Shown here: in pieces, positions 19,832 to 60,572 of the stretch
Numbering within the stretch: position 1 is the first letter of the stretch
How the letters are laid out: each line of letters opens with the position of its first letter
Source of the DNA: Amoebidium appalachense
Taxonomy: Eukaryota > Protista > Ichthyosporea
NCBI GenBank assembly: GCA_963693365.1
Contig: CAVNZM010000013.1
Span: 5,384,640 to 5,448,639, forward strand
DNA: 64,000 bases
Direction: 5' to 3'
Notes under the pieces: model-generated
Seen by the model: the letters and a program-made list of their open reading frames with translations, nothing else
Databases searched by the model: none
Told to the model about the DNA's origin: nothing
Position numbers and translations under genes: made by a program

Positions 19832-22800
19832 ATGGAGTTTCCTTCGTTCGGCAAGAACTGTGGCGAGCCCACCTGCAAGCAGCTTGGTGCGTGCACCCCC
19901 TGCCCTGATGCAGCTCTAGGAAGCCAGCCATGCCCAACTTATACCACACACTTTTAGATCTAAACCCACACGCACACACACACACACACACACACACACA
20001 CACACACACACACACACACACACACACACACACACACACACACACACACACACACACACACACACACACACACACACACACACACACACACACACACACA
20101 CACACACACACACACACACACACACACACACACAGCTACACCATTCCGCCCACACATGCAGCCCATCTCACCCCTCCTCTTCCTCCCTCCGTTCCCCACC
20201 CCCACCCACGCACTTAAACCCGCACCCGCCCTTACCACCACGTCTCCACGCGTTGTTTGAAATGGCTTACGAGCGCAGACAAAGACACTTCTTCTTGTTA
20301 CAAGTCAGATGACCAAAAGTACACACTAATGACTTGTGTAAGCGTTAAAAAAAGTAATTGCACACATTATAACACAGTCATCACAAATATGTGTCACACA
20401 CTGCCACGCATACATAGAAGACGTGACACACACACACACACACACACACACACACACACACACACACACACACACACACACACACACACACACACACACA
20501 CACACACGCGCGCGCGCGCGCGCACACACACACACACACAAACACACAGGGGATCTTATGTGCTCGTTACTGACTCACACCCACCTGCGCTTTCTCTTCC
20601 ACGACAGATTTTCTGCCGTTTACGTGTGATGCCTGCAAGAAAGTATATTGGTAAGTCTGTGCTCTTTATCTGACCATCACTGAAACCCTCCCCCTCCCCC
20701 CTCCTCCCCCCCCCCTCCCCCCCCTCCTCCCCCCCCCCCCCTTCCCCCCCCCCCCCCGCGCGCTTGCTGCGTGCCTCCTTCTCGAGTCCCTTGCATCTAA
20801 TCCTTATGACACTTTTTCTCCCGTTCCCTCTCCATTTCATCCCTAACCCCTACATTCATTAACACAAACACGCACACCACTCACCCACCCACACACACAT
20901 CATAATCTACCGTACTCTCACTCACACAACCTTGGTAACACTCACGATCACACCTAAAATTACACTAGCATTCACACTTACACACGCATGTGCTCTCTCA
21001 CACACACGCGCGCAGACACACACACAGACAGACACTGACTTTTATGCACACACATCCGACACGTATACACACGCGGGCACGAACCAGCGCCCAACCACTT
21101 ACATGCATTAAGCACACATAAATCTCCTTCACACAACAGAACACCTACGAGGGTATTTAGAAACAAGAGAGAAAGGGTCCATTTTCCCACTTCCTATTGT
21201 GTTGTCTCTGTCCATTTTTCTCTTCTTCTCGGCTCTTTTTTTTTTGCTCTTTGGGCTTGAGGTACCGTGCATGTGGGTCTGTAAGAAAGGAGGAAGTTCA
21301 CAGAAGTGATATGGTGGTTCGTGCTCCTCCTATCCCGAGAAGAAAAATGAAAATCAAAACAGAACGAGGGGGAGTAGCAAAGGACTAAGGGTTGTGTGTG
21401 TATATGTGTGGTTGGAGGGGGAGTTAGGTGGAAGAGAGAAGGGCAGGGCGGCGGCGGGGGGGGGGGGGGGGGGGGGGGGGGGGTCTAAAAGCAGCAAAAC
21501 TCTGTTGCAAGATTCTCATATTCCCCCATATTGAGCACCCCTACCACACCCTTTTCCTCGGCTTGTTTGCCAAACCCCCCCCCCTCCCCCCCCCCCCATG
21601 AGGATGGGCTCGGTTTATTCTGGATAATCTTGTGATTTGCACTCTGCATTTTGTTGTCCGTTATGAGTATGTGCTTCCTGACCTATGACACATTTCAGAG
21701 CCCCCCTCCCCCCCTCCCCCCCCCCCCCCCCCCGCATCCCTCCCCGGGGAGGGGAGGGGGAGGGGGGAGGGAGGTAAGACACTGATATCCACCGTGGGGG
21801 GGGGGGGGGGGGGGGGGGGGGGGGGGATAACAACTGCTATCGTGTTGATCAATTTTGTGACGTGAACTTGTTGATTAGAAAACGTAGATACTCAAGGGGA
21901 AGGCGAGTGGGTGGGTGGGTGGGTGGGTGGGTGGGGGAGGGTGGGGGGAGGTGGCAGTAGCAAGTTTTACGAAATACGAGGCTGAGGGGACCACCTCCAT
22001 TGTGAATCCCCCCCCCCCCCCCCCCCCCCCCCCCCCCCCCCCCCCCCTCCTCCTCTCTCTCCACCCCCACTCCTCCCCCCTCCCCCACCCACACCCCTCC
22101 TCCCCCTTCCCCCCGCACACATCCCCCCCCCCCCCCCCCCCCCCCCCCCCCCCACACACACACACATACACACACACTTCAATCCCCTGTTTACCCACCC
22201 TTGCGCCTTAGAACGATCACGAGTTTGTCAGGACACCCACCCTCATTTTTTCCTCTTTGCATACCTTATCACGGGTGTAATTCCTTATTTGGAATCCTAC
22301 TTACCAATAATGGCAAAAAATGCAGCCTGGAGCATCACAAGTATGCGGACCACAATTGCACCGAGGCCTACCTTAAAGATAACGTCGTGCCGGTGTGCCC
22401 GGTGTGCAATAGCCCTGTACCCGTTAAGCGGGGGGAGGACCCAAACTTAAAGGTACGTGCCATCACTACCAGTTACGATTCCTCTATTTATAGCCCTGCT
22501 TTTTTTTTAATATGCGCCCCGAGCTTAAAGGTGCACAGTAGTCACTATCGATACCGATAGCGCTATTTATAGGGCCGCTTTCTGTTTTAGGTACGTAATA
22601 CTTGGAGAAACACACGAGTCACTATCAGTACTGATGGCTCTAATTATAGCCCTGATGTTTATTCTTAGATCGTTTCTTTAACCCAGTGGGCCAACAGATC
22701 AACCAGCATATTGAGAAGGGCTGTGAGCCTGCCGAGCAAACAGACCATAAGGCTTACGTAAACCAGGTATGTACCCCCCCCCCCCCCCCCCTCCCTCCCC

Positions 22801-58200: not shown

Positions 58201-60572
58201 CGTGGCCATGATGCAGCTGGTGGAGGTGGTGCGCACGGAGCAGACCAACGATGCCACCTTCAACGCCCTCTATGACTATGCAAAGGCCCTGGGCAAGCGC
58301 CCGGTCGAGACAAAGGTGTGTTCTTGGGGAGGGGGAGGGGGGGATAGATGCAAGAGAGGAAGAGGGGTGTGGAAAGGAGTATAAATGCGGGCAGGGAGGG
58401 GGAACCAGGGATGAGGGGACAGTATGATGGAGGGGGGGGGGGGGGGGGGGCCCTAGGACGGAAATGGGGAGAGAGGGGGGGAAAGGGGGGTTTGTTTTTG
58501 CCTTTGTTTCACATTTACCAACACCAAATATTTGCTAGCCAGTCTACCCATGAACCAAACATGCACTGACCAGCACCGGTTCATTCCTTTATCAATCTGG
58601 CCCTCTTTCTTTATTGTTTTAGTGCTACACCCATGCTGTTAAAGGACACCTAGGGATTCAAGGTCAACTGCTTTGTAGAGCCACACGTCTCGTAGTTGAA
58701 CCTAAGGCGATTTGGCCCTAATCCCAGGGTTCATTTTTACCGTGTTCTTATGCCTCACATGTCTTCCTTAGAAGGGTTCCCCCGGAACGTTACCCATCAA
58801 CAGTCTATACGCTTTCTTTAACTATTCATTACTAGCCCACACTCGTTTTTCTCTTAAAGGACACCCGGGGGTTCATTGTCAACTACCATCTTCTTCTGCT
58901 GTACATACCTCTCTAGAAGGCAGTTTGCCAGTATAGCTTAGCATTTCACACAGTTTCTTTAACTATTGTTACTAACCCACACCCGTTTAGTTAAAGGACA
59001 CCCCGGGGTTCATTGTCAACCTTCTCCCTGTACCGTACATGCCGTTCTCTGAAATGCAACTAACCTATACTTTACCCACCAGTATATTACGCTTTCTTTA
59101 ACCATCCATTACTAATCCACACCCGTTTTCTTAAAGGACACCCCGGGGTTCATTGTCAACCGCCTGCTTGTGCCGTACATGTTCGAGGCTGTGCGCATGC
59201 TTGAGCGTGGGGAGGCCACCACTACCGATATTGATGCCGCCATGAAGCTGGGTGCCGGTTACCCCATGGGCCCGTTCGAGCTTGCTGACTATGTTGGGTA
59301 TGTAGATTCTCTCTTCTCTTTCTCTCTCTCCTATCTCTCTCTCTCTCTCGCTTCCCCTCCCTTATCTCCATCTCTCCCTCTCTCTCTCTCTTTCGTCTCC
59401 TCTCTCTCTCTCCCTCTCTGCGCCTCTCTCTCTCTCTGTCCCCCCCCCCCCCCCCCCCCCCCCCTCCATCTCCATCTCTCTCTCTGTCTCTGTCTCTGTC
59501 TCTCCCCATCCCCCCAATCTCCATCCCCATCTCTCTCCCTTCTCTCTCTCTCTCTCTCTCTCTCTCTCTCTCTCTCTCTCCCCCCCCCCCCCCCCCCCCC
59601 CCCCCCCCCCCCCCCCCCCCCCCCCTCCTCCTCTATGGCTCTGGCTCTGGCTCTGGCTCTGCTTATGATCCCTTATCTTTGTGCGTGCTTTGCATTGTCT
59701 GTATTATGTTGTTAGTCGTGGAGTAATGCATTACATCCCCCCCCCCCCCCCCTCCCGGCCCACCAGCTCCCACAGTCTTCCTCTGTCAGCTTTTCCCCCA
59801 AACGGTACTCATTGGACTGTTGGTGCCTGCGCTAGAAATGTGCACTGCTTTTGTTGCATGCTCTGCGCACTTGTATGTGTATGTGTGTATTTTTGTTTTA
59901 TCCGACACCCATCACCCATTGTTCTTTCTATCACACCACATCCCCCCCCCCCCCCCCCCCCCCCCCCCCCCACGCGCGCGCAAACACAACTCTTCTCTCC
60001 CGGAACACACACACACGGTATACGTACACGCGCGTAAATGCACACACACACACACGCGCTCGCGCCCTGTATTCCATTGTAACTTCAATCCTTTTTTTCT
60101 AGCGCCAGATGGAAGGACGACAAGCTGTTTGTATATGGGCGTGCATGTGTGTGTGTGTGTGTGTGTGTGTGTGTGTGTGTGTGTGTGTGTGTGTGTGTGT
60201 GTGTGTGCTCACTAAGTGCTGTTGATTCTCCCTCAACTGCGTGTCAGATTGGTTCCTAACGGGAATCCCCCCCCCCCCCCCCCCCCCCCCCCCCCCCAAA
60301 AAAAAAAAATCCCTATACACGCGCGCGTGCACACACACACACACACACACCTTTATATATCCCACCACCTCCCCCAACCCCTCCCCCCAAACAAACACAC
60401 ACACACATACACGTCCACGCACAGGCTGGACACGCTCAAGTTCATCATGGACGGGTGGATCCAGAAGTACCCCAACGAGGCCAACTTCAAGTCCTCCCCG
60501 ACACTCGACAAGCTGGTGGCCGAGGGCAAGCTGGGCAAGAAGGTCAAGCACGGCTTCTACAAGTACGATTAG
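55213..60572 (+). CDS. HADH: Mitochondrial short-chain 3-hydroxyacyl-CoA dehydrogenase
   Basis: Exons: 55213-55356, 56337-56465, 57018-57119, 57505-57627, 58169-58315, 59137-59297, 60425-60572. Motifs [84 protein letters not shown]. Confidence 0.96.

What the first reader, a model, noticed from the sequence alone, without database searches (positions are those of the whole stretch)
21598..59737. Family of poly(A)-less, 5'-truncated retroposon-like elements embedded in oligo-C tracts and always sense to the host gene
Seen: about 15 related intronic copies (21598, 24641, 30641, 30840, 31419, 34716, 37166, 38545, 39312, 39563, 40182, 41002, 43975, 51375, 59655). They share the core GAGGATGGGCTCTGCTTA and/or the 3' end GTACTTCGTAC...GCATTCAAA. 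The 3' ends coincide while 5' ends vary (about 20 to 335 bp). There is no TIR and no poly(A) tail; most copies run straight into a C run and are preceded by one. Every copy is on + in + genes (ZFAND2B, HADH) and on - in - genes (kinase, CoA-transferase), and I found none in the first 19 kb. There are two young subfamilies plus older diverged copies, and the longest carries an ORF C-terminus then a stop. Known: a common 3' end with 5' truncation is the hallmark of target-primed reverse transcription, and microsatellite-targeting non-LTR elements exist. Inference: a non-LTR element or SINE that targets poly-C/G, or adds C tails and so helps generate these homopolymers. The sense bias may reflect the C-rich sense strand, targeting of transcribed DNA, or a function in pre-mRNA.
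Basis: partly seen in the sequence, partly recalled or inferred. Interest (0 to 1): 0.85.

Follow-up and report, generated by a model that had tools for sequence, protein, structure and literature searches.

The report
Sense-only retroelement inside intronic C-runs
In a single-celled relative of animals (Amoebidium), 18 short pieces of one repeat all lie in introns, face the same way as their host gene and mostly abut runs of C; they are likely the truncated ends of a Penelope-like retrotransposon of a kind known from green algae, and their direction, opposite to that of human L1, may reflect insertion coupled to transcription.

Summary
The repeat is real. All 15 listed copies were found, plus 3 more (20-335 bp, median 113.5). 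All 18 are intronic and sense to four host genes; 14 of 18 run straight into a C run, and one sits in (CA)n. A host exon is 100% identical to an Amoebidium parasiticum protein, so the host is an ichthyosporean. Thousands of contigs in public runs match the element, and one extends about 430 bp further 5'. The anatomy (fixed 3' end ending CAAA|CCCC, no poly(A), heavy 5' truncation, (C)n/(CA)n targets, intronic) matches Chlamys Penelope-like elements of Chlamydomonas, whose de novo inserts have median length 128 bp and are all intronic. Membership is untested because no RT or endonuclease could be reached. C on both flanks and 5' breaks clustered at an internal C run favour a pre-existing C target over an added tail. 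The sense bias exceeds target supply (73 sense C tracts to 31 sense G tracts; P about 0.002, one window, post hoc) and is opposite to L1. Verdict: a known kind of element in an unreported host lineage, with an orientation rule I did not find reported and that needs a genome-wide test.

The parts
41002..41336 (-). Longest copy, young subfamily A, in kinase intron 1; 3' end followed by C21
30841..31114 (-). Subfamily A copy, last kinase intron
31419..31617 (-). Subfamily A copy; 5' break at an internal CCC joined to a C run
34716..34736 (-). About 20-nt 3' tip of subfamily A just after a splice donor, followed by C31
24642..24788 (+). Young subfamily B copy in a ZFAND2B intron
39312..39454 (-). 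Subfamily B copy, kinase intron 2
39563..39582 (-). 18-20-nt 3' tip of subfamily B followed by C's
   Evidence: read
40182..40310 (-). Subfamily B copy, kinase intron 1
21592..21699 (+). Older copy, ZFAND2B intron 2
30625..30743 (-). Older copy near the last kinase acceptor
33625..33764 (-).
37170..37327 (-). Older copy embedded in (CA)n, lacking the normal 3' end
38541..38643 (-). Older copy followed by a C run of about 30
43969..44059 (-). Older copy, last CoA-transferase intron, followed by C43
46807..46883 (-).
   Evidence: E 2.5e-7, not a seed
51068..51151 (-).
51357..51461 (-). Older copy, CoA-transferase intron
59655..59737 (+). Older copy, last HADH intron, followed by a C run
41095..41117 (-). 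Internal C7 run within a predicted small hairpin; 10 of 18 copies begin within about 25 nt of it (5'-truncation hot spot)
   Evidence: alignment; hairpin in folds (no significant z-score; not recovered by alifold)
41132..41205 (-). Partial, sub-threshold hammerhead-like motif (3' half only)
   Evidence: Rfam RF00163 14.2 bits against a gathering score of 34, E 2.1
19832..26513 (+).
   Evidence: exon translations
29346..41541 (-). Host gene: protein kinase with a C-terminal SAM domain; 11 copies
43162..52920 (-). Host gene: family III CoA-transferase, EukProt Amoebidium parasiticum P004268; 4 copies
55213..60572 (+). Host gene: 3-hydroxyacyl-CoA dehydrogenase; 1 copy

Best explanation
The 18 pieces share one 3' end, vary at the 5' end, lie in introns and face the way of the host gene; they are likely the truncated 3' ends of a high-copy Chlamys-type Penelope-like retrotransposon that would insert by target-primed reverse transcription into pre-existing (C)n, sometimes (CA)n, tracts. 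Inferred steps: an endonuclease nicks the G strand of the tract. Its 3'-OH pairs with and primes at the element RNA's end (...CAAA-CCC). The RT usually stops after about 100-150 nt, at an internal hairpin and C run, and joins to the upstream C's by microhomology. Insert direction is therefore fixed by the target strand, and a sense insert means the primed G strand was the template strand of the host gene. I think the excess over target supply most likely arises at insertion, in transcribed genes (about 0.4); purging of antisense copies (0.35), supply plus chance (0.2) and a splicing function (0.05) are the alternatives.
For: Common 3' end with variable 5' ends, median 113.5 bp. Chlamys-9_cRei/N4 de novo inserts have median 128 bp, a (C)n target, and are all intronic, more often than expected. 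Four of the five (C)n-targeting Chlamys consensus ends I saw finish in CAACCCC(CC), like ours; Chlamys-9_cRei does not (targets). (C)n and (CA)n are the two Chlamys targets, and both occur here: copy 37170, and loose 5' ends of other copies in runs X2 and X4 that pass into G runs or (GT)n on the + strand. 10 of 18 5' ends fall at the internal C run. 3' runs are not longer than background. There is no poly(A) tail and no TIR. 6745 and 4735 contigs were laid on 451 bp in runs X1 and X2, and a 783-nt contig in X12 extends the element about 430 nt 5'. Orientation: 73 sense C tracts against 31 sense G tracts gives P(18/18) 0.0017, or 0.007 for the 14 C-tailed copies; 0 copies at 36 non-genic tracts gives P 0.005.
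Against: No pseudo-LTR or direct partial tandem is seen in the window. There is no visible sequence match to the published Physarum Chlamys consensus ends, and 4 motifs are absent from the whole PLE supplement. The polarity of the RNA is assigned by analogy, not shown. The orientation statistic comes from one window chosen post hoc, 11 of 18 copies are in one gene, and the 'non-genic' DNA may be silent or unannotated. Transcription-coupled repair in human cells biases L1 against sense insertion, so a TPRT intermediate on the template strand should be disfavoured. Intron sense strands have 3 AATAAA against 16 TTTATT (P 0.004), which fits the selection rival.
Confidence: 0.62

Rival explanations
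1. It is a LINE-type non-LTR element (RLE or APE clade) or a SINE riding one, targeted to poly-C/G, as other non-LTR elements target microsatellites.
For: Fixed 3' end and 5' truncation are general TPRT marks. Amoebidium is about 50% TE, with LINEs among the RepeatModeler classes. The microsatellite-targeting LINE families themselves are recalled, not looked up.
Against: No poly(A) or short tandem tail of the element's own. The joint set of features ((C)n plus (CA)n, about 110-130 bp median length, introns, CAA-CCCC end) is documented for Chlamys. No tRNA, 5S or 7SL hit in the 361 nt scanned, though a head could lie upstream.
Confidence: 0.22
2. On the orientation alone: insertion is strand-neutral for a given tract, and antisense copies are removed afterwards because their A-rich strand supplies poly(A) signals or acceptor sites.
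For: The antisense strand of subfamily A carries CATAAA and AATAAG. Intron sense strands are depleted of AATAAA, 3 against 16. The element's sense strand is T-rich (111 T against 64 A).
Against: No canonical AATAAA in the antisense strand. The 20-nt tips and subfamily B, in which I saw no such motif by eye, are also sense. Selection does not explain the absence from 36 non-genic tracts. Unselected Chlamys inserts in Chlamydomonas are already intron-biased.
Confidence: 0.35
3. The element writes its own C tail, for example by telomerase-like reiteration of a terminal CCC template, and so creates the homopolymers.
For: 14 of 18 copies have a 3' C run but only 10 of 18 a C-rich 5' flank. The two 20-nt tips have long or medium 3' runs and only 2-3 C's 5'. 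PLE RTs are the sister group of telomerase RTs.
Against: 3' runs are not longer than background. Most C/G tracts have no element beside them. One copy is in (CA)n. 5' breaks use C microhomology.
Confidence: 0.1
4. It is a rolling-circle (HUH) transposon of Helitron or Replitron type, read on the opposite strand, with a fixed start and a variable end, which would make all copies antisense in the usual way.
For: Rep-mobilised elements insert in an orientation-specific way. The RNA polarity of this element is not shown.
Against: No Helitron-type TC start or CTRR end on either strand (by inspection; these termini are recalled). No strong terminal hairpin in subfamily A (z -0.46). The passages of the Replitron paper mention truncation once and microsatellites never.
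Confidence: 0.05
5. They are intron-encoded functional RNAs (snoRNA-like) or splicing elements, kept sense because they act in the pre-mRNA.
For: The strict sense, intronic placement is what such RNAs show. Subfamily B folds better than shuffles (z -2.7 and -2.3).
Against: Lengths run from 20 to 335 bp with ragged 5' ends, there are thousands of variants, no Rfam family is near threshold, and there is no conserved consensus structure.
Confidence: 0.03

Closest known systems
Chlamys Penelope-like elements with a (C)n target, e.g. Chlamys-9_cRei and non-autonomous Chlamys-N4_cRei (PMC8557442; bioRxiv 10.1101/2022.05.23.493040)
   Same: (C)n and (CA)n targets, very short 5'-truncated inserts (128 bp against 113.5 bp median), all in introns, no discernible target-site duplication, no canonical hammerhead, and a 3' end CAA-CCCC in four of the five consensus ends seen.
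   Different: The host is a unicellular holozoan, whereas Chlamys are described from green algae, spike mosses and a slime mould. No sequence match was seen. Strict sense orientation is not mentioned in the text I read. RT and endonuclease are not seen here.
Naiad Penelope-like elements (metazoan sister clade, PMC8557442)
   Same: 5' truncation and microsatellite bias; several have only a 'HHR_core' or 'HHR_half_core', like the partial motif here.
   Different: Naiads target (TA)n and are known only from animals.
Human L1 in genes (PMC5717806)
   Same: TPRT with an orientation bias in transcribed genes.
   Different: L1 is biased against sense, partly through transcription-coupled repair. This element is wholly sense and has no poly(A) tail.
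Physarum Chlamys-1_pPol and Physarum-Pp1/Pp2
   Same: PLEs in a protist genome that is rich in homopolymers and (CA)n.
   Different: Targets are (CA)n or AT-rich, their 3' ends do not resemble this element, and the host here is not Physarum.

Membership tests
Naiad/Chlamys PLE | N-terminal GIY-YIG endonuclease, CxC motif and C-terminal RT with IFD in one ORF | not testable with these tools
   The coding part is not in the window, no genome is held, and no loci were found in the collections.
Naiad/Chlamys PLE | Frequent 5' truncation with a common 3' end | tested here: met
Chlamys PLE | Insertion in (C)n or (CA)n | tested here: met
   14 of 18 copies have a 3' C run and one copy is in (CA)n; loose ends.
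Naiad/Chlamys PLE | Partial tandems forming pseudo-LTRs, or inverted 5' copies | tested here: inconclusive
   Copies cluster 100-300 bp apart but none abuts another. One joint in X1 and X2 links an older 3' end through a C run to an A copy (table 5c).
Naiad/Chlamys PLE | No canonical hammerhead ribozyme | tested here: met
   Only a partial RF00163 hit, 14.2 bits against 34, over the 361 nt available.
Canonical C-terminal-EN PLE (Penelope/Poseidon, Neptune, Hydra) | Canonical hammerhead in the terminal repeat | tested here: not met
   compared by eye with the HHR table
LINE-type non-LTR element | Poly(A) or own tandem tail and target-site duplication | tested here: inconclusive
   No poly(A) tail; a TSD cannot be discerned inside a homopolymer.
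LINE-type non-LTR element | APE or RLE endonuclease with a LINE RT | not testable with these tools
   The coding part was not reached.
SINE | tRNA-, 5S- or 7SL-derived head with a Pol III promoter | tested here: inconclusive
   No such Rfam hit in 40990-41350, but the element extends further 5'.
Helitron / Replitron | TC...CTRR ends (recalled), or short terminal direct repeats and a Rep transposase | tested here: inconclusive
   The fixed end is not TC or CTRR on either strand; the other end and any ORF were not seen.
Intronic snoRNA | Defined ends with C/D or H/ACA boxes | tested here: not met
   Best snoRNA hit E 5; ragged 5' ends.

The most novel reading that the evidence does not exclude
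[quoted passage not shown] That would be transcription-coupled, strand-specific priming, for example at nicks made where polymerase stalls on template-strand G runs, or with non-template G runs locked in G-quadruplex/R-loops, which reverses the L1 rule.
Probability: 0.25. Interest if true: 0.8.

Novelty: new variant of a known kind. Interest (0 to 1): 0.5.

Why it matters
How Penelope-like elements choose and prime their targets is an open question; Craig et al. call for an in vitro system. A family this abundant in a culturable protist with several assembled strains would allow a direct test of whether strand choice is set by transcription, because each intronic tract has a known template strand and both tract orientations are common. 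If the RT proves to be Chlamys or Naiad type, it also fills the gap between the algal and slime-mould Chlamys and the animal Naiads. If the bias fades genome-wide, what remains is an unannotated but ordinary member of a described kind.

Tried and rejected
Physarum as host (homopolymer-rich genome) was rejected by the 100% match to an Amoebidium protein. A sequencing adapter or assembly artefact was rejected: diverged subfamilies and presence in runs of four coded organisms and several studies; library types are not on record, so 'independent technology' is not strictly shown. Pattern scans of viral and metagenome contigs gave 0 hits in 4 scans. The empty-site test around copy 39312 was inconclusive: repeats are skipped and no contig bridges the site. 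The antisense frame of the element searched against 1.84 billion proteins gave 4 hits, all unrelated repeat proteins. An intergenic ORF 8433-8978, tried as a possible element protein, had no homologue, and 97 ORFs outside the four genes show no RT or GIY-YIG domain. Folding: the whole copy is no better than shuffles (z -0.24), and the consensus fold is weak with one compensated pair of 9. A complete hammerhead was not found. Earlier scan findings: none. Searches using published Chlamys proteins as queries were left out, so whether Amoebidium transcriptomes hold a Chlamys-type RT stays open.
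Full report
Observation. The longest copy, 41002-41335 on the minus strand, ends ...CATTCAAA and runs into 21 C's. blastn and motif searches and a profile search find 14 of the 15 listed copies. The 15th, at 39563, is an 18-nt exact match to the subfamily-B end followed by C's (read). Three more copies turned up: 33625, 46807 and 51068. The reversed window gives no hit better than E 0.68. A profile from only the six young copies finds seven older copies at E 8e-4 or better but misses 43969, 46807 and 59655, which rest on weaker evidence. Lengths are 20-335 bp, median 113.5. Subfamily A copies are about 97-99% identical and B copies 93-96%. 14 of 18 have a C run directly 3', 10 of 18 have a C-rich 5' flank, and one lies in (CA)n. 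The claimed ORF end is 21 open codons in the window copy. By eye that frame stays open across the 30 further letters shown, which chance allows, so it is unresolved.

Host. An exon of the CoA-transferase is 100% identical to a EukProt protein labelled Amoebidium parasiticum, and that protein maps exon by exon on the minus strand at 43165-52860. The host is therefore Amoebidium, an ichthyosporean. Sarre et al. report a 202-Mb A. appalachense genome that is about 50% TEs (PMC11244446; passages, section 6 and a supplement word search). In what I saw the repeats are classed only as LTR, LINE, DNA or unknown. Exon translations fix the strands of the other three genes, and all 18 copies lie in introns. 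A fifth gene, with a LIM domain, lies at the right end and was counted as genic.

Abundance and extent. 20 of 24 listed runs hold part of the stretch, 7 of them half or more of its words. 6745 and 4735 contigs from runs X1 and X2 were laid on 451 bp. Summed depth is near 10^6 over the element against 18-19 over a neighbouring exon; the tool warns this is no copy number, so I read it only as 'very many'. Eighteen per 64 kb would be about 57,000 per 202 Mb if the window were typical. In run X12 a 783-nt contig covers 41013-41338 and continues about 430 nt 5', and a 427-nt contig does likewise for subfamily B, so the window holds only 3' ends. Run X4 holds subfamily B but not the exon at 90% identity. 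Loose 5' ends of other copies pass into G runs or (GT)n on the plus strand, that is C runs or (CA)n upstream of the element.

Target or tail. Ten of 18 5' ends fall within about 25 nt of the element's internal C run, which sits in a small predicted hairpin (not significant, and not recovered). Two longer copies break at CCC next to a C run and at CA next to (CA)n. This is what microhomology joining to a pre-existing tract gives. The 3' runs (median 14, n=14) are no longer than background runs (median 19, n=145; P 0.80 using the 11 runs of 10 or more). An empty-site test failed because contigs do not bridge the tracts, so 'target' is inferred.

Orientation. If direction is set by the tract, sense copies need a C tract on the coding strand. 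Genes here have 73 such tracts and 31 G tracts, so 18 of 18 sense has P 0.0017, or 0.007 for the 14 C-tailed copies; no copy lies at any of 36 tracts outside the five genes, P 0.005. All four occupied genes have unused G tracts. Caveats: one window, chosen post hoc; 11 copies in one gene; 'outside genes' may be silent or unannotated DNA. For selection: intron sense strands have 3 AATAAA against 16 TTTATT (P 0.004), and antisense subfamily A carries two near-signals but no AATAAA. Against selection: the 20-nt tips and subfamily B are sense too, and selection does not empty intergenic tracts. Human L1 is biased the other way, partly through transcription-coupled repair of the template strand (PMC5717806; abstract and Background). 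That result argues against a simple version of my mechanism and is also why the bias is notable.

Comparison. Craig et al. (PMC8557442; abstract, sections 6, 9, 10 and 15, supplement parts 1, 2 and 52 and word searches) describe Chlamys Penelope-like elements that are often 5'-truncated, target (C)n and (CA)n, lack discernible TSDs and mostly lack hammerheads. Of five (C)n-targeting consensus ends I saw, four finish in CAACCCC(CC) and Chlamys-9_cRei does not. In Chlamydomonas mutation-accumulation lines, Chlamys-9_cRei/N4 made inserts of median 128 bp, all in introns and more often than the (C)n distribution predicts (bioRxiv 10.1101/2022.05.23.493040; passages and section 7). The word 'orientation' there concerned Cryptons only; its supplements were not seen and may hold strand data. 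The element therefore works like a Chlamys. Whether it is one could not be tested: no RT or endonuclease was reached, and four of its motifs are absent from the published consensus files. A canonical hammerhead is not present, which argues against the canonical PLE clades. Replitrons and Helitrons (PMC10288648; passages) fit poorly. Other papers seen as passages only: PMC9940879, PMC4758236, 10.64898/2026.07.22.740005 and 10.64898/2026.05.21.726589.

Novelty. Searches for Amoebidium with Penelope gave 0 papers. Penelope-like with ichthyosporea gave 3 unrelated listings, and searches listed nothing that, by title and start of abstract, describes this family or a sense-only retroelement. The library lacks most subscription papers and Repbase/Dfam, so this is not proof of absence.

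Verdict. The feature is real and high-copy, and most likely a Chlamys-type Penelope-like retroposon (0.62). Its C-run targeting and intron bias are already described for that kind; the host lineage and the strict sense orientation are the new parts. Interest 0.5, and 0.8 if the orientation rule holds genome-wide and arises at insertion (probability about 0.25).

Noticed in passing
window 3085-3470 (-), 4406-4789 (+), 16655-17038 (-), 17648-18031 (+): Four near-identical (96-99%) intronless ORFs of about 127 aa, in two head-to-head pairs, with a hydrophobic N-terminus and two cysteine-rich repeats of about 49 aa. No Pfam family and no usable ESM Atlas hit.
   Followed up: partly
window 12043-13521 (+): Intronless 492-codon ORF with several hydrophobic stretches in an otherwise intron-rich genome; only a weak DUF2585 match, E 0.0027.
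   Followed up: partly
window 27393-27617: Tandem duplication with a 150-bp period and a 100% identical 75-bp core bounded by long G runs; either slippage between homopolymers or a second C-run-associated family in partial tandem.
   Followed up: no
window 58640-59180 (+) and 34137-34455 (-): Degenerate tandem copies of a splice acceptor plus exon start just upstream of the real exon in HADH, and around an acceptor in the kinase.
   Followed up: no
window 599-724 / 1961-2080 and 1201-1372 / 2101-2260: Direct repeats of 91-93% identity that look like an LTR-type repeat and a deleted copy of it.
   Followed up: no
window 62689-63075 (-): Exon of a LIM-domain gene (PF00412, E 1.2e-9) that runs off the right end; its C-rich introns hold no element copy.
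   Followed up: partly
introns of the four genes, 27.7 kb: Strand asymmetry on the coding strand: C>=10 runs 86 against G runs 34, (CA)n 55 against (TG)n 18, AATAAA 3 against TTTATT 16.
   Followed up: partly
window 41131-41141 in runs X1 and X2: A contig joint with 29 inserted letters made of short units that resemble C-strand telomeric repeats by eye (table 5c).
   Followed up: no
window 43165-52860 (-): After the Amoebidium protein itself, the best hits of the CoA-transferase exon are 55-65% identical metagenomic and genomic proteins of about 400 aa, one labelled Pseudomonadota; origin not examined.
   Followed up: no
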